A DNA stretch of 64,000 bases from Marsupella aquatica (lineage: Eukaryota > Plantae > Marchantiophyta), in NCBI GenBank assembly GCA_973895155.1, contig OZ316891.1, positions 4,993,708 through 5,057,707 of the forward strand, read 5' to 3'. The translations under genes and the position numbers were made by a program. Below are positions 13,646 to 56,071 of this stretch, in pieces (within the stretch, counting starts at the first letter, position 1; each line of letters starts with the position of its first letter). The notes beneath the pieces were generated by a model. The model saw only the letters and a list, made by a program, of their open reading frames with translations. It was not told the DNA's origin and did not search any database.

Positions 13646-14350
13646 GGGAAAGAGGAGCGAGTACGGAGAAAAGAGAGAAAAGAGAGAAAGCGAGAAGACG
13701 AGGAAACGAACGAAGGATCAGCTATGGCGATGAAGAACAATAATGCAGTTGTTCTCTGTTCGTCGTCCCCACAGGACCACTGGAAAAGGGAGGAGAGGGA
13801 GAGCGTGGAGTTCAGGGAAGGCGCAAGAGGACGCGAATAAAGCGCCGTGAAATCCGCAACACATACGCGTGGGAAAGTGGAGTTCGGAACATTATTGATT
13901 GCTGATGACACAGTTTAGTGAAGTCGGTCGACAACTGGTGAGACATGAGAGTTACTGCTTTATGACAAGTATATCGCCTCATAGCTTTACGTACTGCACT
14001 TTGGTTTCGGAGAAAAGGCACTCACACAGAATTGGAGGACGGTGGACGTTTCTGTAATTGAAAGGGGGGAGGGGAAGGGATTTTGGTTGTAAGCCAGTAC
14101 ATTAGGTCTTAACACCATTGGGACCTTGCTCTCATTGCAGAGGAATGTGTAGGTTTGTAAGGGAGACAACGGATTTTGGCGAAAAGGAGGAATAGAGGAA
14201 AGCCTGGATCGCATGCAGGTGAGACGGGGGTTGGTTGATCTCGTCAAGGAGGACGAGAAAGATCGTCCGTAGAGGGGTAGAGGAGGAGAAGAATGGTAGT
14301 ATTGGGAGATGGCACAGTAGATTATTGTTATCGCGTGACAACTCTTGTCA

Positions 14351-16980
14351 ATGCTCGCTATGCGCCTCCAGAAGTTAGTCATAGTAATGGCTCCGCAGCA
14401 GCAGCTGCAGCTGCACTGGCAGCGACGGTGGCATCCAGTGGGGGTCCTCCACGCCGCCCTCCTCCTCCTCTGCCTAGCGCTTCTAATGCACGCTTCTGTC
14501 ACGTCGGCTGATGCTCGGCCTCTTCCTTCCGGTAATGTGACTCACTGCTTCCTCTTCTCTTGTTGATGTGTTGAATTTGGCAGTTCCATTTCGGTTGTGG
14601 CTCTTTTTTACTGGATTGTACCTCTTCGGGACGGAGGATTCTGTAAGAAGAGGATGTTTGTGTCAGCACTAATGTGAACTCTATTTTCCCCTGGGGTTAC
14701 TTAGAGGTGAAGTGCTCAAATTGAAGCAAGGGCATGGGAGCTCAATTGTACAGAAAGGGTACTGCCATAAAGGGCTGCACTTTTGAAACTGTTCATGCAC
14801 TCGTGCGTTCATTTCTGTGTCAACTCACGGTCCTTTGTACAGACGGTTTAGGTTACTTGTGGTTTGACATTGCAGGCAGGAGCTTAACTTTTCTGAAGTA
14901 TGAAATTTGAGAGGTGATTGGTGGCTCATCTGTTCCCGTCTCTTATGCAGAAAATACTACTGGATATAACTCGAGCCCAGCTGAACAACCCGAGGAAGGA
15001 ACTCCTTCACAACAGGTAATGCATTATCCTTTTCTTACTTCCTTTATCCGACTTTTTCTCGCTGTCTCCCGTGGTACGCGGGGCCATTGACATGTACAAC
15101 ATGTGCGATCTATGCGTTTTCTCTCTTTCTCCTGAAAATTGGAGACGACTGAGATTTCTATTGACAGTCCTGGGATGGGTGGTATTGGAGCCGGGAAGGG
15201 GGGTGGGGGAAGCCGGAAGAACTTCCAGGGTCCTTTGGACTCCTAGTGCCCACAGAATATCTGTTGGGTAACCAACGCTGTCGCCATGTTGCAATTCTTT
15301 TCCGAAGGAGGCATTCTAAATTACTTTGATAGTCATCCTCGGACATGGAACTGATAGGACAGCTCCCAAAATGACAAAATAAATATTAAGACTGTAACCT
15401 GAGTGAAACATGACCATAACTTTTATCTATTGTGTTTCGAAACACACGGCCACTCAGCTATGGCTCTCAGAGAGTGCATTTCTCCCAAGGTTATCAGTCA
15501 GAGTCAGCAATGGGAGACCATTAGTGTGTCCCGTAGTAATCATATTGAAGGGCTGTATCGGGGGACAGGTGCAACCTTTCGCCTTCTGTCTCCCATGTCT
15601 GTTTTGTAAATTGTGTGTTTTTTGCTGGTTCATTTTGTAAAGGTCTTTTGTGGTTTTCTGGCTCTACTCCAATTGAGTGCTATTACTCTGCTATGACTAG
15701 TAGGAAGAGCGCTCCTTCCGCTCGTCAGGAGGCGATGCAGGTGCCTTCGGGAGTTTTAGGCTTAGGAAGCTCCCAAATGTGTACACAATGTTCTCCGATT
15801 TGAGGTCTGAGATTAAGGGTTTGCATCTTGTATGAGTCTCAGGGCATATCCAGCCGTGTTTAATAGATCTTTTACTCCCCGGAAGAAAGAGGGTTACCTG
15901 CTGTGGAAGCCTGCTCTTTTCAGCTTCCTTAGTTGTTCACCCTTGGTCGCCCTTCCCAGATTCGCTGTACTGGTTCGCGGTTGATGCATTGCATTCTATC
16001 TTTCGAGTGATCAGATTTATAATAGGGAACTTGCCCGTGTTTGTTAGAGTTACAACACTTCGCAGCGGATGACTTATTTCACCTTATTTGCACCAAACTT
16101 TGCTTCAACCTTACAGAAGTAATCTGTAAGACTTTGCTTTTTTATCTCACTGTAGAAAGAATTTGCACTGATGCAAGAGTTCCCTGAAAGTCGTGAAATG
16201 TTTACGGTAAACGGGGAGAAGGTATTACTGCTAATTTGAGAAGACGAACCCAAACTGACTGTGATGATGTTTTACGCCTTTTTCCGGTTCCTTGGAGCAG
16301 AAATGCTGTCAGATTTCAGACTCCTTTGATGGATCATTCCCATTGGTACTATTCCTTGTCATCTAGCAACTTGGATGGGGTATCTTGACATGTCTGAGGA
16401 CCTCTCTTGGTCTCAGGCGAATTCACCATTACGATAGTCTGCTAATGGGGTGTTAGGCAAGCATCTTTTAGTCATGGCAGTCTTATTTGTTCCTCCTCCT
16501 GCCTTTGGATGGTCGGGAGGAAAGGCATCGACAAGTCTGTTTAATTAATTGCCCTTCGATCCAGAGAAGTTTGACAATTTACCCGGGAATGGTGTGCATC
16601 TCTTATGTTTGCTTTATATTTGTCCATGACAGCTTATCGATTCTTCGTTTTGACCGTGTGAGTCCCGTCATTAAGATGAGACAGGCACTCCTTACCCAGA
16701 TTTTGACTTACGTGCCATAAGCTACATCCAGCGTAGTTCATGTGGTGCTGTCAAGTTATCTAGTTGTACTGAGATTGTTGGATATCTTATTTTGCAGATC
16801 GCTCCCTTTGAGATGACTGTACTGCCCAACAGTGACGCTGATGAAGACAATCTGAAGGATTGCACAGCCCTGCCCGATTCCTCAAGTGAACCGTGTGTGA
16901 GTGATGGCCGAATGCTAGCAGCAGACTACGGACCTCCTGGAGGAAACCAAAACTCTCATCCCGCTGCCCCCATTCCATAA
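14351..16980 (+). CDS. Secreted sulfotyrosine peptide hormone precursor, PSY-like (3 exons, ~130-142 aa)
   Basis: Exons 14351 (or 14387)-14531, 14951-15015 and 16798-16980 splice in frame at GT-AG sites. The product has a hydrophobic signal peptide (LHAALLLLCLALLMHASVTSADA-RPL), an acidic prodomain, and the C-terminus ...GRMLAA-DYGPPGGNQNSHPAAPIP*. Confidence 0.8.
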
Positions 16981-18099: not shown

Positions 18100-18926
18100 G
18101 TGTCACAGTCTCCTCAGTGGCAACTTACGCATACAGACTAATGGATCCAACCCTCTACAGATTTTCGATTTGACCTTAGTCACAATAATCTGAGTGCACC
18201 CATTTCATCCAATATCTTCAGCAATTCTGCGACATCGATACGTCGTCCGTGGCTTCAAAACAACAAATTCTCTGGGGACATTCTTGATGTTATTTATACC
18301 CTTGGTTTAAAGGACGCACTTGAGATGCGATTGGACAACAATCTCTTCACCGGAGACCTCTCAAGGATGGCAAATACCAGTTTACATCATTAATTCGGCC
18401 TAGTAGCTACTAATGGACCTTAGCAACAACGATCTTAAATGGAGTAAATCAGAAGCGATTCCTGACCCGGTAAGTTCTACCCTGGAGCCACTAATTTCTA
18501 GTCCGCCTTGCGGTAGGCTACAAGAGTTTCGAGCTGGAGGGAACAATTTCTCAGAAACACCTCTCCCTACTGCATGCTTTGTCAACTAGACTTATTCCTC
18601 GACCCTCTCTGTTCTGGACCTAGTAATAGTCACCTAATGGGAGAGATATTGGGCGCAGCGTTCAATAGCGCCTGTCAACCACCTTGTCTATCACGCCTCC
18701 AGTTACTAAACCTTTCCAACAATGTTGCAATTGGGTGATTCCCGCAAAGTGTCCTATCACCACGTCCATTCTCGGGTCAACAGTTTGTTATCGATGTATC
18801 CAACAATAATTAGTCTGGACCTCTTCCGTTGATACTTCCTAGCAGTAACATGTACAATCCCGTACTCTATTTGCAGGGGATCCCTTGCCTCCATGTGGCC
18901 AGTCCAGGCAAGAGACTGGTGTGCCA
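18100..18926 (+). pseudogene. Decayed partial tandem duplicate of the LRR ectodomain of the adjacent receptor kinase
   Basis: Colinear with ~19500-20290 (e.g. cttagtcacaataatctgagtg, ctcttcaccggagacctctcaaggatggcaaataccagt), with several stops and frameshifts. Similarity ends just before the TM segment. Confidence 0.85.
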
Positions 18927-18949
18927 TGATTTTGAGCACCAGAACCCAT

Positions 18950-21508
18950 AGGTCCCAGTTTGTCGCCAGTCTTCCTAAATGGAAAAACTTGAGCTGAGGT
19001 CGTGGATCAAGTCAACGGGAGATAATGCATACACTAAGGCAGACGCACGAGGATATCTCGACAATATAGCATCCAATATCTCTGCATGCCGAAACCTGCG
19101 CTTCGTCGCCCTCGAGCAAACCACTATATCAAGAGTTCCCTCTGGTATGCGCGATTTAGTCAACTTGCAATTTCTCAATCTTGCTGGTAACCAATTAGGT
19201 GGGCTGTTCCCCACACAAAAGCTGGGAGAATTAAGGTCTCTTGTCAGTTTAGATATTTCTGGTAATTCCTTTGAAGGTCGCATCCCTGCTCTTCCAAATC
19301 TAACCAATCTTGCTGAGTTGAAGCTTGACAACAACAGCTTTACAGGGTTCGAACAGCCGTGGTTACTCGGTACAAAGAGTCTGCAGCACTTCTCTGTCTC
19401 CAACAATTCACTCGAGGGCAACATTCCATCAAGCGTAACAAATTTTCGATATCTGCTGGTCCTCGACATGTCTCACAACAATTTGTCGGGCAATATACCC
19501 TCTGGATTTTCGGCAGTGCTGGGTAATGGACCCAACACTATACGGATGTTCGATCTTGACCTTAGTCACAATAATCTGAGTGGACCCATTCCGTCCAATA
19601 TCTTCAGCAATATTAATACAAGCATAGGGCGTCTGTGGCTTCAAAACAACAAACTCTCTGGGGACATTCTTGATGTAATTCATGCTCCTGGTTTGCAGCG
19701 CACTTACGAGATGCGACTGGACAACAATCTCTTCACCGGAGACCTCTCAAGGATGGCAAATACCAGTGTTCCAATAGACTTCCGAATAATGGACCTTAGC
19801 AACAACCATCTTCAATGGAGTATATCAGAAGCGATTCCTGACCCTGTAAAGGCTACGCTAGAGGCGTTCAGCTCTGAAGGTCCCCTACAAGAGTTTCGAG
19901 CTGGAGGGAACAATTTCTCAGGAACACCTCTCCCTACTGCATGCTTTGTCAATAAGAGCTCGATCGGATTCCTCTCTGTTCTCGTAATAGTCACTTAACG
20001 GGGGAGATAGTAGGTGCAGCGTTTAGTAACACCTGTCTACCAGGTATCCAGTTACTAAACCTTTCTAACAATGATGCAATCGGGCCATTCCCGGAAAGTA
20101 TCCAATCACCACGTTCTGGTCAACAGTTTGTTGTCGATGTATCCAACAATAATCTGTCTGGACCTCTTCCATTGATACCTCCTAGTAGTAACCTGTACAA
20201 TCCCAAGTACTTTGCAGAAAACGATGGACTTTGTGGTGATCCCTTACCTCCATGTCTCCAGTCCAGGCAAGGGACTGGTGTGCAATGGTGGGTGTTTTTG
20301 GTCATAATTGGTGGATCTGTGACAATAGCTATGGGAAGCTGTTTGGCTGCATTTTGGCGATGGAGAGTGTACCAGAAACAACATGAGCAAGATGCTGATC
20401 TGATCAGGACATTACTGGAGAGGGATTCTGCAGCGTCGCTTCGAGAGCTCAAGAAAGCCACAGATAACTTTGCGGCCAGTGCACAAATTGGAGAGGGAGG
20501 CTTTGGGACTGTTTACACGGGCAAGCTCAATGACGGGACTATTGTTGCCATTAAGAGAAGCAAGCGGGAGGGAACTGCAAAGGATAAGGAGCAGTTTCTT
20601 AATGAGGTCAGGATCTTGTCGCACGTGAACCATCGTCACCTTGTAAAGCTTCTTGGTTGTTGTATGGAGAACAAGATTGCTGTGCTTGTCTTCGAGTTTG
20701 TTTCAAATGGCACACTTCAAGAGCATCTTCAAGGCAAAATTGCGGCAAGTTATCTGAGCTGGAAACAACGACTTGATATTGCTGTTCAGACAGCGGATGC
20801 TCTCAATTACCTTCATTCGGCAGCGACATTTCCTATTTTCCACAGGGATGTGAAGTCGGCCAACATTTTGTTGAATGAGGATCTTGATGCTAAGGTGGCA
20901 GATTTTGGTATCTCAAAGTTGGCTCCCCTTCGTGCCACCCATGTGTCGACAGTTGCAGTCCAAGGTACCATTGGCTACATCGATCCCGAGTACTACACAT
21001 CGTTTCAGCTAACTTATAAAAGTGATGTGTACAGCTTTGGCGTGGTTCTTCTAGAGCTCATATCAGCCAAGCCTGCGCTTGACTTTCACAGAGTGGAGAT
21101 GAAACGAGTCTGGTGAATTTGGCTCGTCCCTACCTTCTTAAAGGAGATTTGGAGGAATTCATCGATCCCCTTCTGACGGAGAACTATGAAGACCCAACTG
21201 CCGGTGTGAGTGAGTCGATCTTGAATGTTGGAAGATTGGCCATGAAATGTTTGGACATGCAATCAAGACGGAGACCAAGAATGAATGAGGTGCTAAATGA
21301 GCTTCAAAACCTTGGGCTGATGTTACGTGGCACACCAAAGAACTTGGAGTCTATCGATGAGGATGAGAATGAAGATTTACTGTGTGACAACATTATCCTC
21401 CTTTCCAAATCGTTCTCTGGGAATAGCTGTACTTTTACCACAGAAAGTGATGGTGGCGGCATTGAGAGGTCACACTTTCCTCCCCTTTCTGAAAGATCCA
21501 TAGGGTAG
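18950..21508 (+). pseudogene. Intronless LRR receptor-like kinase with a WAK-type kinase domain, 5'-truncated and frameshifted
   Basis: Plant LRRs (LDxSxNxLxGxIP), capping motif NDGLCG, a TM segment (WWVFLVIIGGSVTIAMGSCLAAFW) and an RD kinase (GEGGFGTVY, HRDVKSANILL, DFG, GTIGYIDPEYY). Frameshifts near 19983 and ~21095 split it into three ORFs. No signal peptide is visible. Confidence 0.85.
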
Positions 21509-28957: not shown

Positions 28958-31485
28958 TGCAAGTCCAGAATCTGAGCTGCAAGACGGTCACGAGTTTCAT
29001 CACCAACGTTGAATTATCTATCAGGAACAGAACACACGCAAAGCCGAGATTCAAGCCAGAGTGGCATTCTTAGCCGTCCGGTTAGGGAGCTCTCATCTTC
29101 CTTGGTCTTCGGATCCTCAAGAGCTAGAAAGTAATGCATCGACCAGCTCGAACCAGGAGTAAGGACGCATTTATATTGGAGCCAAAGAAGGACACAGAAT
29201 AAGATCAAATCGAACAAAAGCTGCAACAGTTGCCAGACTGCGGAAGAAGAGAAACCAGTCTGAAAGAGGAAGGATGCCCGGAAGGATGATGGTTTATCGC
29301 TTTGATTGTAGAGAGCCTTCATTCGTAGACCGATAAGAGGAAGCATCATTCTGACTATCGTTTCTCTCGGCAGACAACAACAGTTAAGAATCGGACTGCC
29401 ACGAACAGCGCTGTCCTAGTATTCACTAACTGCTAGCAGAATTCGGCTCCGAGGCTATTCAGTATGACGCGAGTCGCAGGCAAGTTCTACGCACAGAATT
29501 GAGGTAAGCACAGAAGTTGGCATTCAAATGTTCAATGGCCAGGTCTACCGTACCTGATCACAGATCTGTGGCGTGAGCGAAAGTTGAGCATAACGAATCG
29601 GCAACGCAGCCGATCTCCGACCCTCTTACCTGCTCGATCGGATCGATTCCCAGAGTCAATAAGCGGCAGTTCTCCACAATAGTTCAATTGCCCAACACGG
29701 AATGCCAGAATGCAATGCACCCAGATGATAGAAAGCTCGAGAATCACCGGTTGCAGCTCAATCTCTCGATGAGGCGTTGCTGCACGGTCCGGGAGCACGT
29801 TGCTAGATGGCGACTCCGGACGAGTCCTCGGCAAACGGAAAATACTAGAGGTAACCAGACTGAGTTCCCCCTTATACTGATCTCTGGTTCTCAGACCCCA
29901 ATTATGATCCGTTGAATTTGCAGCGGCTACAGGCGCTGCACATCCATGGACAACTCTGCCCCGCGCATGTGTTCTCTCTCGGCCATGGGTCCAAACGAGA
30001 GTCCTCCACACCACACTCAGTTCCCTCTTATCTGATCTTCACGGCTCAGAGTCGGATGTGTGAAATAATGATTTGAACTGGCAGCGTGCACATGTATGGG
30101 CATGCTTCGCTCTATTGCTCTATCTGCCAATTCTGTGCCACGATTCAGTTGATCGGTGTAATTCGTTCCATTACAAATGTTTGAATTGGCAGCGTGACCA
30201 TGCAGGGATTTGAGGTTGCCCCATGTGGGTGTGGTTTGCCATCCATGATCAGTCTATGAATTAAGGGCCGCCAGGAATTTCAAACCTCGGAGCGTCGGAC
30301 TGGACCATTCATTCAAACATAGAAGCGTTGGTCGGACTGGAGATCGATATGTTTCAAAAACTATCCACTGAGGAAGCTAGCCAGGCTGTCAACGTCTTCA
30401 TCAAAGCCAGCCGGGCAGGCAGCAGCGGCTAGCTGCCGGATTCAACAAGTGAACGACTATGATCGAGAGTCAGCACCATTTGCTTCTGAGATATGAGATT
30501 CCTACCCCTCGAACGATCGGCCATTCGAGTAATTCAAACCGCTGACTCAAAATTTCAAAGACCGATTCAGATAGAAATTCAAAAGGCATTGTGGACATCG
30601 ATCGGTCCATCATTCAGCCTGCCTCGAAATTTCCGTTGAATTCCCAGTATGTGACATTTACTTGCACCTGATTGATTCAAACGGCTCACCGCTGAACAGG
30701 CCGGGACTGAATGGGGACTCTCATGGTCGAGATTTCGCTTGAGCTCAGACGTTAGAATTGGGGAGTGGACGATTAGATTCTCGGAATCTTTGGCTCTTCG
30801 CCGTCAGATCCAAAGATCGACGGCTCACGATGACAATACTGAAGGCGCTCAGATATTGCAAGCGCTGTCTGGTCTCACAGTCGTCACCACGGTCCAATTC
30901 TGTTGTAGGCCAATTCGTCGATTCGGAAGGATTTCTCGATCCACTGCTGCATTCATTCAAAGAGGGGGGTCTCCACAAGGTCTTCTGCTCACGTTCCTTC
31001 GTCGACAGCCATGGAAAACCTGATTGAAGGTCTTCCAGTAAAAGCTCGATCGGTTTCGTGGGCTCGATTGTAGTTAATTATGAGCTATCCTCTCGTTAAC
31101 TATGGGCGTGCGGGACAGGAGGCGAGACAGGACGAGGAGGGAAGAAACGTCGAGGACAGCGTGGAGGGTTCGGAGAGGAGGAAGGATCGGAGGGAAGTAT
31201 TGAAGCCCGAGAAGAGTAGAGGGGAGGGAGACAGCCCACGGCCTCCATGAAAGCGGTAGTAGTTTATACGTCCAGAACCTTTCGAGAAGAAAGGTTCGAA
31301 GAGAAGTTCCGGAGATGCAATCGATTTTTTTGATTGCAATCGAGCTGAAGGAAATTGAGACCTCCATTTAGAAATAGATAACTTACCATTCCGTAAAGGC
31401 AATCGTTTCGTTTGTCTTGAATTGCGACCACCGAGGTGGAGGAAAGTTAGATTCCTCCACCTTGAGCAAATAGACTGTTGACGTA

Positions 31486-32778
31486 ATGAAAGGAAATTCG
31501 TGGAAAATCGGTTTCAAATTGGGGCGCTTCACGTGGACACTCACATTCACGTCGATCTTATTCTATGTCCTGATAGGAGTGCCGATTCTGGCCGAGCTAT
31601 TCGTGAGTGTTCTGGGCCAGAAGCATCCCTTCAGGCTTCCAGATGGGGATCTTATCCACTGCATCCCAATCCAAAGCCTCGTCCAAAGGCTGCCTGCACC
31701 AACAACAACCTGGCGAACGAGTTCGTCGATGGAACCGTTTGACAGACTACGCTTTCGAGAAGTCACTACAATTCCCTCGATTAAGGAGGCTGCGCAGCTC
31801 ATTGCATTGGAGAAACAAGTCTGTCGAATTGGAACAGTCCCAATGCGCTCAAGTCTGAGCGTGTTCTACCTGACCGAGGTCCTGGGGAGAAAAGCCTACC
31901 CCAGGATGGATCCCGTCATGCATTTGCTGATTGTCAACCGTGAAGTAAGGAAATCCACACCATCGGATTTGGCGTTATGGTCCAATGATGACGGCACTCA
32001 CAAGTATGCGATCGCAGATATTGTGGGGTCTTATAGGGGAACACGAGGGCGCTTGAGCATCTGGCAGCCGCATGTAGAAGACAAGGAGTTCAGCTTGGCA
32101 CAGGTTTGGGTGTCCTCAATGGACGTCGATGGGAAGTTTCACTCCTTAGAGGCTGGGTGGCAGATCTACAGAGGACTCTACAGCGATTCCAAGCCCCGTT
32201 TATTCGTGTACTGGACAGCTGATCTTTACTTTACAACAGGTTGCTATAACCTGCAATGCCCCGGATTCATTCAAGTGAGCAACAAATGGTTGCTCGGGGG
32301 ATCGTTCGCGGAAGTCTCGACCTTAGACTCAGATGATGTATACGAGATCGAGATCCACATCTTCAAGGACCGTGAAACCGGTGATTGGTGGCTGCAGCTG
32401 AATGATGATAATGTGGGCTACTGGCCAAAGAGTTTGTTCGGTGCAGGTGCTTTCGGCGACCTGAACACCAAAATCCGTTGGGGAGGGGAGATTTGGCACC
32501 GCCTTGGTCACTTTACTGATACTCAGATGGGAAATGGAAATCATCCTTCGTCTTCAGAGACCCAAAGAGTCGCGTACGTGAGGAATTTGCAAGTGGAGAA
32601 CTGCTCGGACACTCTCATTGACCCACCTCGTGCTTTGACCTCGTTTTCCAATTACCATGAATGCTGCGACGTAAAAGTTCATGAAAGTAGAAACAACGAG
32701 TCTCATCGATCTGAATGGGGCACATTCGCTTACTTCGGCGGCTCCGGATTCAACGCACACTGCGTTGGAGTAAATTGA
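31486..32778 (+). CDS. Neprosin-family (DUF239) glutamic peptidase, secreted or membrane-anchored, intronless
   Basis: 430-aa ORF with an N-terminal hydrophobic segment, a pro-region remnant (PDGDLIHCIPI, CRIGTVPMR), and EFSLAQVWV, SLEAGWQ, RLFVYWTAD, GCYNLQCPGFIQV, GDWWL, VGYWPKSLF, WGGEI and TQMGNG. Confidence 0.93.
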   Translation: MKGNSWKIGFKLGRFTWTLTFTSILFYVLIGVPILAELFVSVLGQKHPFRLPDGDLIHCIPIQSLVQRLPAPTTTWRTSSSMEPFDRLRFREVTTIPSIKEAAQLIALEKQVCRIGTVPMRSSLSVFYLTEVLGRKAYPRMDPVMHLLIVNREVRKSTPSDLALWSNDDGTHKYAIADIVGSYRGTRGRLSIWQPHVEDKEFSLAQVWVSSMDVDGKFHSLEAGWQIYRGLYSDSKPRLFVYWTADLYFTTGCYNLQCPGFIQVSNKWLLGGSFAEVSTLDSDDVYEIEIHIFKDRETGDWWLQLNDDNVGYWPKSLFGAGAFGDLNTKIRWGGEIWHRLGHFTDTQMGNGNHPSSSETQRVAYVRNLQVENCSDTLIDPPRALTSFSNYHECCDVKVHESRNNESHRSEWGTFAYFGGSGFNAHCVGVN

Positions 32779-40100: not shown

Positions 40101-41635
40101 CTAGAGTTGAGGTCTAGGCTTCTAGAGGCCCCACCAGAATATATGTGCATAGAAAGGAGTATCTTATGATATGTATGATTGTTAAAATAATGGGGCCAGG
40201 CATGATGACTGTTTTCTCATTTCATCTTACTATAAAAGCGCAAACTGATACTTTTAAGAGCCAAGGTTAGAGTGAAGCCTCTAGACCTTAAATCCATGGA
40301 CATCATGTGCATGGAAAAATTACTGTGCATGTGAAATCTCATGACTATGATATATGTCACCCGGTACATGCAAGTTTTTTGTAATAATTTTTAAGAAATA
40401 CATTCAAAAAATGGACACTATGGGCCTACCACATGCAACATATGTGCATACAAAGACAAATGTGCATAGACAGAAGAATGGTGTATTATACATGACTATT
40501 AAAATCTATTAAAATGATGAGTTTTTTTATCATTTCATTAACCTTCAAAGAATATGAATAGAGAATATATTTTGGTAACACTTTTATTGTCCTTTCCTTC
40601 ACGTTCTTTGAAGGGATAATGGGGCTACTTAACCTTCAAAGAATGTAAATACTAATTATATTTTGTCCATACTTTTATTGTCGTCTCCTCGATTCCTCTC
40701 TTCTATTCACGGTTCAAAGTAGTGGTGATCGAGGGTAGTAACATTCAAAGGAAATACAAAGGAAACCAATCAGCTTACAAGGAGAGTTTATTAGGGACTT
40801 GTGACCTCTGTCTCACTGCTTATCCCCTCGCCAATGGTGTCACTAAAGCCCAGCGGGTTTAGGGTTCTCTCTCCTTCAGTGGTGTTGGTGCAAACGTATC
40901 TCCTCTCGTTCGATGTGAGCTCTCTCGTCCTCTCTCTCTCAGTCTATGGGACCGCTCGTGTGGTTCGCCTTTTCGTTTGCAGCTGCAATTGTAGGTTGAA
41001 GCACTTCGTCGAAGCATTTTGCTGAAGCATTTTGCTGAAGCATTTTTGCTGAATCTTTTTTGTTGAATCATTCTGTTGAAGCTCAACGCAGCAATCTGAG
41101 TCCTGTGAATTGGCACTCTGTCTCGTTCGAATCGCTCGCAACCAGGTCGGAGCCTTTTTTCAAGCTCCCGCAAAGAAATTGTGGCTCGATTGATCGATTT
41201 ACTCAGAGCACACTCTGTCTCGGTTTTGGTGGTTCGGTACTGCATTAGGTTTAAGCCTTTTGTCGGAACTCAGCACAGAAATCTTAAACTTAGCTGGAAA
41301 ACTAGTCTGTCGTGCACAGGCTTTTCGAGCATTCTGAGATCCTTGAATTCGGTGTATTTTGAATTTGACGTACTAAAATTTCTGCAATGGTGGCTCCTGC
41401 AGCTCACTTCAATGTTTCTGCGGCACTCGGGACTCCCGGTTATCATGGCGGTCTAACCAGCAACTGACAATTAAGAATCCCGTGCGGTTTCTCCCCACGG
41501 ACAAGAGCTCTGCGGAAGGCCGGACGGACAAAGTTTTGTTTAGGAGAGCTGTCACTTCTCTCTGGAATTTTCCCTCACTTTGTCTTGTGATAGCATTGCT
41601 GCGCATTGCAGTGGAGTGGAGTAGAGGCGGTGAAA

Positions 41636-43318
41636 ATGTGTGGCATATTGGCAGTCTTAGGCTGCCATGACACGTCCCCGACGAAGCGAGCTCGGATTGT
41701 GGAATTGTCGTGCCGGTTGAAGCACCGAGGGCCGGATTGGAGCGGGATTTATCAGCACGAGGATTGTTTCCTGGCGCACGAGCGGCTGGCGATTATCGAC
41801 CCGGCGTCCGGGGACCAGCCATTGTTCAACGAGTCCAAGAGCATCATCGTGGCTGTCAACGGAGAAATTTACAACCATGAGGAGCTCAAGCGAGGAATGA
41901 GCAAACAAAAGAAGTTCAACACACAGAGCGACTGTGAAGTCATTGCTCATCTCTATGAGGATATAGGAGAGGAGGTCGTGCAGCGGTTGGATGGGATGTT
42001 CTCGTTTGTGCTGCTCGACACCCGCGACGAGAGCTATATTGCTGCCCGAGATCCCATTGGGATTACTCCTATGTACATCGGCTGGGGACAGGATGGCTCG
42101 GTGTGGTTTGCTTCAGAGATGAAGGCTTTGGTCGATGAGTGCGAGACTTTCCAGGCCTTTCCGCCGGGCCATATTTATTCCAGCAAGACAGGAGAGTTGC
42201 GTCGGTGGTATAATCCAGTGTGGTTCTCTGAGACTATTCCATCGGTTCCGTATGATCCCTTAGTTCTGAGAGAGGCTTTCGAGAGGGCTGTGATCAAGCG
42301 GCTCATGACAGACGTGCCTTTTGGAGTGCTTCTCTCGGGGGGGCTTGATTCTTCTCTGGTTGCAGCTGTGGCGTGTAGGCACCTTGCTGAATCAAAGGCA
42401 GGCCAGCAATGGGGTACGACGTTGCATACGTTTTGTGTGGGCTTAGAAGGATCTCCAGATTTGAGAGCTGCGAGTGAAGTGTCAAAGACTCTCGGGACAG
42501 CGCACCATGAGTTCCATTTCACTGTTCAGGAGGGTTTGGATGCGCTTTCAGAGGTAATATACCATATTGAAACTTATGATGTGACTACCATTCGGGCCAG
42601 CACTCCCATGTTTCTGATGTCTCGGAAAATTAAGGCTCTTGGGGTGAAGATGGTGCTTTCTGGGGAGGGATCTGACGAAATTTTCGGTGGATACCTCTAT
42701 TTTCATAAAGCCCCAAACAAGGAAGAATTACATCTCGAGACATGTAGAAAGATTAAGGCTTTGCATCTGTATGATTGCTTAAGAGCTAACAAGTCCACTG
42801 CAGCATGGGGATTGGAGGCTCGCGTGCCTTTCTTAGACAAATCCTTCATCGATTTGGCCATGAGCATTGATCCTGCTGAGAAAATGATCGACAAGAGCAA
42901 AGGACGAATAGAGAAATACATTCTTCGGAAGGCTTTTGATGATGAGGAGAATCCTTACCTTCCAAAGCACATATTATACCGGCAAAAGGAGCAGTTTAGT
43001 GACGGTGTTGGCTACAGCTGGATTGATGGACTAAAACAACATGCAGCCTCCCAGGTATCTGATAAAATGATGGCCAATGCTCGACATGTCTTTCCTTACA
43101 ACACCCCGGCGACGAAAGAAGCCTACTACTATCGGCAGATTTTCGAAAAACGCTTTCCACAGCAAAGTGCCCGGGAGACAGTACCCGGAGGTCCTAGTGT
43201 AGCGTGCAGTACAGCAGCTGCCATATCTTGGGACAAAGCTTGGGCCAACAATCTGGATCCCTCTGGTCGTGCTGCGGTTGGTGTTCACGACGGTGATTCC
43301 ACTGTGAATGGCACTTGA
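41636..43318 (+). CDS. ASN: Glutamine-dependent asparagine synthetase (560 aa), coding region intronless
   Basis: N-terminal nucleophile MCGILAVLG, plus HRGPDWSG, AHERLAIIDP, VNGEIYNH, LLSGGLDSS, SGEGSDEIFGGYLYF, EARVPFLD and RQKEQFSDGVG, in an uninterrupted ORF. Confidence 0.97.
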   Translation: MCGILAVLGCHDTSPTKRARIVELSCRLKHRGPDWSGIYQHEDCFLAHERLAIIDPASGDQPLFNESKSIIVAVNGEIYNHEELKRGMSKQKKFNTQSDCEVIAHLYEDIGEEVVQRLDGMFSFVLLDTRDESYIAARDPIGITPMYIGWGQDGSVWFASEMKALVDECETFQAFPPGHIYSSKTGELRRWYNPVWFSETIPSVPYDPLVLREAFERAVIKRLMTDVPFGVLLSGGLDSSLVAAVACRHLAESKAGQQWGTTLHTFCVGLEGSPDLRAASEVSKTLGTAHHEFHFTVQEGLDALSEVIYHIETYDVTTIRASTPMFLMSRKIKALGVKMVLSGEGSDEIFGGYLYFHKAPNKEELHLETCRKIKALHLYDCLRANKSTAAWGLEARVPFLDKSFIDLAMSIDPAEKMIDKSKGRIEKYILRKAFDDEENPYLPKHILYRQKEQFSDGVGYSWIDGLKQHAASQVSDKMMANARHVFPYNTPATKEAYYYRQIFEKRFPQQSARETVPGGPSVACSTAAAISWDKAWANNLDPSGRAAVGVHDGDSTVNGT

Positions 43319-48795: not shown

Positions 48796-50778
48796 ATGGC
48801 GTCCATCACAGTACCTCGAGTGAAATTGGGGTCGCAGGGATTGGAAGTGTCGCAGCAGGGATTGGGGTGCCTGGGCATGTCTATTGCTTACGGGCCTCCC
48901 AAGCCAGAGCAGGAGATGATCGAGCTGATTCGCAAGGCGGTGGAAATCGGCATCACGTTCATCGATACGGCGGATATGTATGGACCTCACACCAACGAAA
49001 TTCTCATTGGAAAGGTACACCTCATGTGAATTCCAGTAGTTTCGAACATTGAAGCATAGATTCTCGGGACAAGTCTCTGACCATCGAAACGTGTGTAAAA
49101 TTGGACAGCGGGTTCAGGAATTTCTTGCTATTCAGTTATGCTCTAACTTCGTTCTATGGTAAAACATTAGAGTGCGACTTTGATGGTGGGAGTCGACTCA
49201 TTGACGCGGTGTTCTTCGTGGTGGCAAATGATGACGCACAGGCAATTAAAGGAATCAGACACAAGGTACAACTCGCCACCAAGTTCGGAAACGTTGTGAG
49301 GGGCTATGAATTTGATATACGGGGAGATCCAGCCTATGTCCGCGAAGCTGTGGAAGGAAGTCTGAAGAGACTGGGCGTGGATTACATCGATCTTTACTAC
49401 CAGCATCGTGTTGATTCCACAGTACCCATTGAGATCACTGTGAGTGCCCTTCACATGAAATTATTCGAAGCTGTTGATAGCAGCTGAGATACCAAATTAA
49501 TTGATTTTCCACAATGCGAGTGCAGATATTTTTTGAGTGCCTTCCAGAAGCATGCATTCCATAAATAGGCAGAGACTGGCAATCAGGATGTAATTTTTGG
49601 GAGTTTTCTGTTCCGATCATATACATAAGCATAGCTGTTGACAGAATAAGAACGCGTCATGGGCATGTGATTGTAGGTTGGAGAGATGAAGAAGCTTGTG
49701 GAAGAGGGGAAGGTAAAATATCTGGGCCTGTCCGAGGCATCTGCTGCGGACATCCGACGGGCACATGCTGTCCACCCCATCACCGCTGTTGAGCTAGAGT
49801 GGTCACTCTGGTCTCGTGACGTTGAAGAGGACGTGATTCCGACTTGCAGGTGTGAACTGCATTCCATCTGCTACAAAATTCCCTTGCCTTCTCCCAAATG
49901 CAATGATTTCGACTTTTCTTTCATTCTTTCATTCTTTCATTTCCCTAATTTTTGGTTCAATTCTGACCATTGCTTTGGGATATCTGCTAAAGAAATTGCC
50001 CTTGAATGGAATCTCTGTTGTCTACACGACTTCATGCGGTACAGCAGCATTTCACTTTCATGCTCCACGTATGGCACCTGAAACTTTCTTACGATGCCAC
50101 AATGTTGGAATGGACCGTCCATTGCAGAGAGCTGGGCATTGCCATTGTGCCATACAGTCCACTGGGACGAGGTTTCTTCTCCGGAATCACGCAAAATGAA
50201 ATGCATGACACCGATTGGAGAAGGGTAAGCACCTCTGTACATTGACCCTCTTTGCACCTCTTTTGATGCTCTAGTAGCTCCGAATTTCAGCTTTGGAGCC
50301 ATGTACGCTGCACTTGCAGTGAGTAGGGATGTGAACTTTCTTTTCCTTGGCGGCAATGAATATACTTCAATTTTATTTAGTAAACATCCTAAGAAGGGAA
50401 TTGAGCATGGCCTTATTTCGGAATTCTCAGTTTTTGCCAAGGTTCCAATTGGAGAATTTTGCCCGGAATAGAGCATTTTACGATCGTCTCGTAGCAATTG
50501 GAGCTACCAAGAACGCAACAGCAGGCCAGCTCGCCCTGGCTTGGCTGCAACATCAAGGAAAGGATGTCGTGCCAATTCCGGGTACGACCAAATGGAAGAA
50601 TTTCGAGGAGAACATTGGAGCTCTGGCTGTGAAACTCACAGAAGAAGAATTGAAGGAGATCCAAGACGCAGTGCCACAAGACGAGGTCATGGGTGATCGG
50701 TACACGGCGGACAAAATGTTGACCACATGGAGGCACTCCACCAGCCCGCCGCTCTCTACCTGGAAAGAAGCCCATTAG
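48796..50778 (+). CDS. Aldo-keto reductase (plant auxin-induced PCNT115/ATB2/perakine reductase-like), copy 1, 5 exons
   Basis: Exons ~48796-49014, 49242-49439, 49677-49849, 50128-50224 and 50431-50778. Motifs [55 protein letters not shown] and VPIPGTTK. Confidence 0.95.

Positions 50779-54073: not shown

Positions 54074-56071
<1,998 letters not shown>

What the first reader, a model, noticed from the sequence alone, without database searches (positions are those of the whole stretch)
14351..16980. Hidden secreted peptide-hormone precursor combining PSK-like processing context with a PSY-like mature peptide
Seen: three small exons (not joined in the ORF track) splice in frame into signal peptide + acidic prodomain + ...DNLKDCTALPDSSSEPCVSDGRMLAA-DYGPPGGNQNSHPAAPIP*. 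Known: PSY peptides begin with sulfated DY and follow DY-x-x-P-x-x-N-x-x-H-x-P (AtPSY1 DYGDPSANPKHDP), while PSK precursors carry two Cys followed by RRxLxAHxDY. Here the mature part (16924-16962) is PSY-like but has His at position 12 rather than 11, and it is preceded by a PSK-like C-x10-C...RxLAA-DY context. Inference: this is a divergent or new sulfotyrosine peptide subfamily, possibly informative on a shared PSK/PSY origin.
Basis: partly seen in the sequence, partly recalled or inferred. Interest (0 to 1): 0.82.

Follow-up and report, generated by a model that had tools for sequence, protein, structure and literature searches.

The report
Liverwort PSY-like peptide with cysteine loop
A three-exon liverwort gene encodes a likely secreted precursor of an 18-residue, PSY-like sulfated growth-signal peptide with an unusually conserved two-cysteine loop in front of it; the proposed link to the unrelated hormone phytosulfokine is not supported.

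Summary
The gene is real. Three exons (14351-14531, 14951-15015, 16798-16980) join through GT-AG introns into 142 codons, and an annotated Calypogeia fissa protein and three unnamed relatives match. No RNA of this species was seen. In 6 of 6 sequences the DY motif lies exactly 18 residues before the stop. Eight tail positions are invariant, and AtPSY1 has 7 of them in register. The peptide is therefore PSY-like and probably 18, not 13, residues long. It fails the published PSY motif at positions 7 and 11, and His12 is Arg in Calypogeia. The PSK half of the claim is weak. There is no Pfam PSK match. R-x-L before DY occurs in 9 of 14 PSY precursors. The 'LAA' is not conserved. Spaced Cys pairs occur in 7 of 16 CLE precursors, and one relative lacks the second Cys. 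What remains unusual is that the Cys loop is as conserved as the peptide in the most distant relative, while 0 of 14 PSY precursors carry one. PSY-like peptides with shifted His/Pro are already described in moss. Verdict: new variant of a known kind.

The parts
14351..14531 (+). Coding exon 1: long N-terminus, hydrophobic signal-peptide core, predicted cleavage site
   Evidence: frame, GT donor at 14532; 70% identity to C. fissa residues 1-66; hydropathy
14444..14515 (+). Hydrophobic core (residue 32 onward) to the A-x-A site (residues 53-55); signal peptide inferred, not predicted by SignalP
14532..14950 (+). Intron 1, GT-AG, phase 1
   Evidence: joined form inferred from P0001-P0003
14951..15015 (+). 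Exon 2: variable polar prodomain
   Evidence: matched by P0004
15016..16797 (+). Intron 2, GT-AG, phase 0
   Evidence: P0001-P0004 read straight across this junction
16798..16980 (+). Exon 3: acidic stretch, Cys loop, processing site, peptide, stop codon
16861..16896 (+). C-x10-C loop (Cys104, Cys115); both Cys in 5 of 6 sequences; disulfide inferred
16909..16917 (+). Invariant R-M-L, an R-x-L motif of the kind cut by subtilase SBT6.1/S1P (cleavage inferred)
   Evidence: motif from PMC7913133 section 15 and PMC13082318 passages
16924..16977 (+). Predicted mature 18-residue peptide from DY to the stop; invariant D1 Y2 G3 P5 N8 P13 P16 P18
14293..14511 (+). Upstream ATG opening a 72-codon ORF that overlaps exon 1 in another frame; homologous to the N-terminus of P0004

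Best explanation
This is a three-exon liverwort gene for a likely secreted prepropeptide that would be cut to release an 18-residue, tyrosine-sulfated peptide of the PSY lineage, predicted to act as a growth signal through a PSYR-type receptor kinase. Shown: exon frame, hydrophobic N-terminal core, Cys pair, R-M-L, DY tail, and their conservation in relatives. Inferred steps: (1) ER entry and signal cleavage after residue 55; (2) a disulfide between the only two Cys left in the propeptide, forming a 12-residue loop that likely aids folding, trafficking or protease access; (3) Tyr sulfation by TPST in an acidic context; (4) a first cut at R-M-L by an SBT6.1/S1P-type subtilase, then trimming to Asp1; (5) no C-terminal cut, since the peptide ends at the stop, with possible hydroxylation of Pro16; (6) binding that switches off a PSYR-type kinase, as in Arabidopsis and moss. 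My odds: secreted DY-peptide precursor about 0.9; PSY lineage about 0.75; signalling through PSYR about 0.55.
For: DY-to-stop length is 18 in 6 of 6 sequences, with 8 invariant positions. By eye against Table 1 of PMC8462819, AtPSY1, itself an 18-mer, has 7 of those 8 in register without gaps; moss PSY1 has 5 of 8; CIF1 has 3 of 8; RGF1 and MpRGF have 3 of the 6 that fall within 13 residues. The liverwort RGF is a different gene in C. fissa. R-x-L is reported in AtPSY1-5. In organism B exon 3 has 3 substitutions, 2 silent, none in the tail or Cys codons, and no indels. TPST is reported in Marchantia. PSY, TPST and PSYR work in moss.
Against: The published motif DYXXXX[AP]NXXHXP fails at position 7 and at His11, both met by 14 of 14 PSY precursors. 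His12 is Arg in C. fissa. AtPSY1 is a favourable PSY to compare with. No homology search reached any named PSY. The N-terminus before the cleavage site is long (55 residues from Met1, 43 from Met13). No PSYR of this organism could be looked for (no genome held). Sulfation, processing and activity are untested.
Confidence: 0.65

Rival explanations
1. A liverwort sulfopeptide family of its own: secreted and DY-sulfated, but with another receptor, resembling PSY only by Pro/Asn-rich convergence.
For: Fails two defining PSY positions. Relatives were found only in C. fissa and unnamed close sources. The conserved loop has no counterpart in 14 PSY precursors.
Against: 7 of 8 invariant positions and the 18-residue length agree with AtPSY1. 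PSY-like peptides with moved His/Pro are active in moss.
Confidence: 0.15
2. One reading: the precursor shares descent with PSK (Cys pair, basic motif, DY) while keeping a PSY-type tail, so PSK and PSY come from one ancestral precursor.
For: Acidic stretch, Cys pair, basic motif and DY come in the same order as in PSK. The distance from the second Cys to the Asp is 10-12 here and 11 in 5 of 5 seed-plant PSKs. 0 of 14 PSYs have the pair. The published bryophyte PSK candidates lack DY, and one survey found no PSK outside vascular plants, so the slot is open.
Against: No Pfam PSK match for exon 3 or P0001-P0005 (HMMER filters drop most matches above E about 0.1). Cys spacing is 10 against 7-8. 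The acidic run before the second Cys, the basic pair at +3/+4, and T-[LV]-x-A-H are absent. The loop's own invariant residues are not in the PSKs shown. Spaced Cys pairs occur in 7 of 16 CLE prodomains, including Marchantia CLE2 with C-x7-C. P0004 lacks the second Cys.
Confidence: 0.1
3. The Cys loop is itself part of an active product: either a second peptide released at R-M-L or a longer loop-plus-tail ligand.
For: Against P0005, identity is 8 of 12 in the loop, 12 of 18 in the tail and 2 of 16 just upstream, ungapped.
Against: P0004 has Ser for the second Cys. Only four lineages were seen. An invariant processing motif lies between loop and tail.
Confidence: 0.07
4. Not a functional gene: chance ORF pieces or a decaying copy.
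For: Splicing was not shown with RNA from this species.
Against: Annotated orthologues on two C. fissa contigs, open frames in all relatives, silent-biased changes in organism B.
Confidence: 0.03

Closest known systems
PSY family (AtPSY1-9; Physcomitrium PSY1, Pp3c8_3200)
   Same: Signal peptide, variable prodomain, R-x-L before a C-terminal DY peptide; D1 Y2 N8 P13; with AtPSY1 also G3, P5, P16 and the 18-residue length.
   Different: No Ala/Pro at 7, no His at 11 (His or Arg at 12); conserved C-x10-C loop upstream; 139-142 aa against 71-104 aa for Arabidopsis precursors.
PSY-like (PSYL1/2) peptides of Physcomitrium (Lyapina et al., bioRxiv 10.1101/2024.05.13.593875)
   Same: Bryophyte DY peptides whose His and Pro are displaced from the PSY positions; 20 orthologues reported in mosses and one liverwort.
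   Different: PSYL motifs begin DYD; this one begins DYG. The motif spacing was garbled in the text held and the supplements were not seen, so orthology could not be judged.
Phytosulfokine precursors
   Same: Acidic stretch, two Cys, basic motif, then DY, at a similar overall distance.
   Different: No YIYTQ; Cys spacing 10 against 7-8; no T-[LV]-x-A-H; no Pfam match; in PSK the Asp is cut away from a 5-residue peptide.
RGF/GLV/CLEL family
   Same: DY start, Pro5, His at 12 in some members.
   Different: No His8, Pro9-Pro10 or Asn13; liverworts have a separate, highly conserved RGF gene.
CLE precursors with prodomain Cys pairs (MpCLE2, SmCLE1/2, PpCLE1/3, AtCLE9/10)
   Same: Spaced Cys pair in the prodomain upstream of the mature peptide.
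   Different: Unrelated, non-sulfated mature peptide; loop sequences differ.

Membership tests
PSY | N-terminal secretion signal | tested here: inconclusive
   Hydrophobic core and A-x-A site, conserved in C. fissa; no SignalP; unusually long N-terminus
PSY | Precursor of 60-200 aa with a DY motif in the second half (criteria of PMC7913133) | tested here: met
   142 aa, DY at residue 125
PSY | Asn8 and Pro13 | tested here: met
   6 of 6 sequences
PSY | His11 | tested here: not met
   Ser or Thr at 11 in 6 of 6; His12 in 3 of 6, Arg12 in 3 of 6
PSY | Ala or Pro at position 7 | tested here: not met
   Gly in 4 of 6, Gln in 1, Arg in 1
PSY | Tyr2 sulfation and perception by PSYR | not testable with these tools
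   Needs peptidomics and mutants
PSY-like (PSYL) of mosses | DYD start with displaced His/Pro | tested here: inconclusive
   DYG start; His displaced; published motif unreadable in the held text
PSK | Mature YIYTQ pentapeptide | tested here: not met
PSK | Match to the Pfam PSK precursor model | tested here: not met
   0 PSK matches for exon 3 and P0001-P0005
PSK | C-x7-8-C, then basic pair and T-[LV]-x-A-H-x-DY (5 of 5 seed-plant PSKs) | tested here: not met
   C-x10-C, R-M-L, no Ala-His
RGF/GLV/CLEL | His8, Pro9/Pro10, Asn13 | tested here: not met
   Asn8, no central Pro pair, Pro13
CIF/TWS1 | About 21-residue DY peptide with the CIF C-terminal motif | tested here: not met
   18 residues; 3 of 8 invariant positions shared with CIF1

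The most novel reading that the evidence does not exclude
Liverworts keep an ancestral sulfopeptide precursor with a disulfide-looped prodomain from which both PSY (tail kept, loop lost) and vascular-plant PSK (loop kept, tail shortened) descend; the loop controls processing, and an alternative splice that drops the signal peptide switches secretion off.
Probability: 0.1. Interest if true: 0.75.

Novelty: new variant of a known kind. Interest (0 to 1): 0.38.

Why it matters
I saw no liverwort PSY sequence in the papers I could read: the Fig. 6D supplement of PMC8462819 lists none among 15 rows, although its text names Marchantia. This gene gives a concrete candidate ligand with a defined 18-mer that can be synthesised and tested on existing tpst and psyr mutants. 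It is a natural variant lacking His11, so it tests whether that residue is needed for PSYR recognition. Its conserved Cys loop points to a function for prodomain Cys pairs, which also occur in PSK and some CLE precursors and for which I found no study. If deep homology to PSK held up, it would bear on the open question of where PSK came from.

Tried and rejected
RNA: no RNA holder listed; the four runs laid were contigs that cover the introns and showed no joint at either predicted junction; the one joint listed (15626-15958, organism B) lies inside intron 2. No whole genome was held, so paralogues, TPST and PSYR could not be sought outside the window. No paralogue in the window (tblastn and motif scan). 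Wider homologue searches stopped at the same three clusters: 1 of 1 candidates, 3 of 1528, 3 of 1445; the exhaustive representative search gave 4 hits, of which P0006 (1439 aa, repeat protein, E 1.3e-4, no DY tail) was dropped as chance. Lengths above 244 aa were not searched in the word-index database. Metagenome scans: 0 of 337 and 0 of 272 pattern matches confirmed. PDB: 0 matches for the alignment. ESM Atlas: best scores 0.86 (unnamed plant clusters) and 0.77 (KRAB), leads only, not used. Exact look-up of three window stretches: 0 of 3 in the collection. The neighbouring LRR kinase was considered as the receptor and rejected: about 10 LRR-consensus matches against 26 LRRs in PSYRs, and it changes frame twice. 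RGF and CIF membership rejected by motif. Earlier findings: nothing by sequence or by the first word search, eight unrelated prokaryotic notes. A profile-profile comparison with PSK, PSY and CLE precursor alignments was not run; those comparisons are by eye. No structure or complex prediction was run.

Full report
Observation. The window shows an ATG at 14351, GT-AG introns at 14532-14950 (phase 1) and 15016-16797 (phase 0), and a TAA at 16978-16980. The protein has a hydrophobic core at about residues 31-47, an A-x-A site at 53-55, a polar and acidic prodomain (10 Asp/Glu in 43 residues), Cys104 and Cys115, R-M-L at 120-122 and DY at 125. SignalP was not available, so secretion is inferred. 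The motif DY-x5-N-x4-P occurs once in the six frames, which is not significant alone (13 of 100 base shuffles had one; a tighter pattern written after seeing the sequence had 0 of 100). The case for a gene rests on relatives.

Relatives. Exon 3 finds an annotated, unnamed 139-aa protein of the leafy liverwort Calypogeia fissa (P0001, E 6.5e-17). Its cluster holds a second C. fissa copy and a protein from a 930-base Logan contig (P0002, P0003). The exhaustive search added P0004 (939-base contig) and the more distant P0005; a fourth hit, P0006, was dropped as chance. P0001-P0003 align over all three exons and P0004 over exons 2-3. A 139-codon reading frame in a 930-base contig is best explained as a spliced transcript, but that is inference: the contig DNA could not be fetched. 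Two profile searches, two metagenome scans and a PDB search found nothing further. The host is therefore a liverwort, probably a leafy one; two earlier notes on this genome say liverwort too. In a second organism (runs X3, X4, one study) exon 3 carries 3 substitutions, 2 silent and 1 Thr-to-Ala, none in the Cys codons or the tail, and no indels. The adjacent 197 bases of intron carry 6 substitutions and 5 indel rows in X4 but none in X3. The X3 contig covering exon 1 has 1 difference in 355 bases, the next one, mostly intron, 14 in 433.

The peptide. In 6 of 6 sequences DY lies exactly 18 residues before the stop, and D1, Y2, G3, P5, N8, P13, P16 and P18 are invariant. Read by eye against Table 1 of PMC8462819, the 18-residue AtPSY1 has 7 of these 8 in register; moss PSY1 has 5; CIF1 has 3; RGF1 and MpRGF have 3 of the 6 within 13 residues. 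The mature peptide is thus more likely the 18-mer at 16924-16977 than the 13-mer proposed. It is not a strict PSY. The published motif DYXXXX[AP]NXXHXP (PMC7913133) fails at position 7 and at His11, and all 14 PSY precursors with a sequence in the Fig. 6D supplement of PMC8462819 (15 rows, one without sequence) meet both. His12 is present in the window, P0004 and P0005, but C. fissa has Arg there. It is not the liverwort RGF, which is a separate gene in C. fissa.

The PSK claim. I tested each element. Pfam gave no PSK match for exon 3 or P0001-P0005, though its filters hide weak matches. R-x-L within 20 residues before DY is present in 9 of the 14 PSY precursors (my count), is stated for AtPSY1-5 and occurs in CIF precursors, so it is generic. 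The two alanines before DY are replaced in P0001-P0005, and moss PSY1 itself has two alanines before DY. All 5 seed-plant PSKs shown have C-x7-8-C with an acidic run before the second Cys, a basic pair at +3/+4 and T-[LV]-x-A-H; here the spacing is 10 and those residues are absent. As a control, 7 of the 16 CLE precursors in supplement part 14 carry a spaced Cys pair in the prodomain (x5 to x11; my count), and that of Marchantia CLE2 has the PSK spacing. A Cys pair is therefore not a mark of PSK descent. I give shared descent about 0.1.

What is unusual. Both Cys are kept in 5 of 6 sequences (P0004 has Ser for the second). Against the distant P0005 the loop is 8 of 12 identical, the tail 12 of 18, and the 16 residues just upstream 2 of 16, ungapped. 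Arabidopsis PSY precursors are said to share nothing outside the core (PMC11211552), though those are paralogues. After signal cleavage these are the only two Cys, so a disulfide loop next to the processing site is likely.

Mechanism. Most likely the precursor enters the ER, forms the disulfide, is sulfated on Tyr2 by TPST (reported in Marchantia), is cut at R-M-L by an SBT6.1/S1P-type subtilase and trimmed to Asp1 (as shown for RGF6 and proposed for PSYs), and is released as an 18-mer that needs no C-terminal cut. By analogy with Arabidopsis and Physcomitrium it would bind a PSYR-type kinase and lift its brake on growth. Every step after the gene structure is inferred. The LRR kinase just downstream is not a good receptor candidate.

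Prior knowledge. PSY signalling is established in moss, and PSY-like peptides with displaced His and Pro are described there, with orthologues in mosses and one liverwort (bioRxiv 10.1101/2024.05.13.593875). Ten library searches turned up no description of this gene, of a liverwort PSY sequence, or of a role for prodomain Cys pairs. The library lacks most subscription papers; Furumizu and Shinohara 2024, Furumizu and Aalen 2023 and the journal version of Lyapina et al., all cited in the papers read, were not seen, nor were the preprint supplements, and any of these may list this family. What I saw: PMC8462819, passages, supplement searches and supplement parts 12-14 of 46; PMC7913133, passages and section 15; 10.1101/2024.05.13.593875, passages and section 26; PMC8329595, passages and a supplement search; PMC12637578 and its later bioRxiv version, PMC13618415, PMC11756074, PMC13082318, PMC11211552, PMC9901580 (no mention of PSY) and PMC13091385, passages only.

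Verdict. A real, conserved, so far unnamed liverwort precursor of a PSY-like sulfopeptide, divergent at two motif positions and carrying a conserved Cys loop. It works most likely like a PSY but is not filed as a strict member. The PSK/PSY hybrid reading is not supported, though not excluded. New variant of a known kind; interest 0.38.

Noticed in passing
window 14293-14511 (+), donor at 14444; P0004: An upstream ATG in strong context opens a 72-codon ORF overlapping exon 1 in another frame. P0004 starts at the homologous ATG (84% identity) and joins exon 2 at the place matching a weak GT at 14444, which drops the signal-peptide core and puts the upstream frame in register with the peptide. 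This looks like an alternative 5' splice giving a non-secreted form; one contig only, and the same protein lacks the second Cys.
   Followed up: partly
window 14309-14320 (+): A three-codon upstream ORF in the main frame, 42 bases before the start ATG; with the ATG at 14293 it may dampen translation if it lies in the transcript.
   Followed up: no
P0005, residues 1-8: The N-terminus aligns to the translated end of intron 2 of the window, so P0005 may be an unspliced last exon with the intron at the same place.
   Followed up: partly
window 18139-21508 (+): LRR receptor-like kinase with about 10 LRR-consensus matches, frame changes near 19980 and 21100, and a degenerate 78%-identical partial copy at 18139-18928; possibly a pseudogene or assembly error.
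   Followed up: partly
PMC8462819 supplement, parts 12-14: Spaced Cys pairs occur in the prodomains of 7 of 16 CLE precursors and 5 of 5 seed-plant PSK precursors, hinting at a recurring, unstudied disulfide loop in peptide-hormone precursors. The listed Marchantia 'PSK' looks like an alpha/beta hydrolase (recalled motif), not a secreted precursor.
   Followed up: partly
window 41594-43318 (-): Intronless 574-codon ORF resembling glutamine-dependent asparagine synthetase (name recalled from motifs).
   Followed up: no
window 31474-32778 (-): 434-codon ORF resembling a neprosin-type secreted protease (name recalled from motifs).
   Followed up: no
window 49053-50778 and 55628-56071 (+): Tandem, near-identical exons resembling aldo-keto reductase genes (name recalled).
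   Followed up: no
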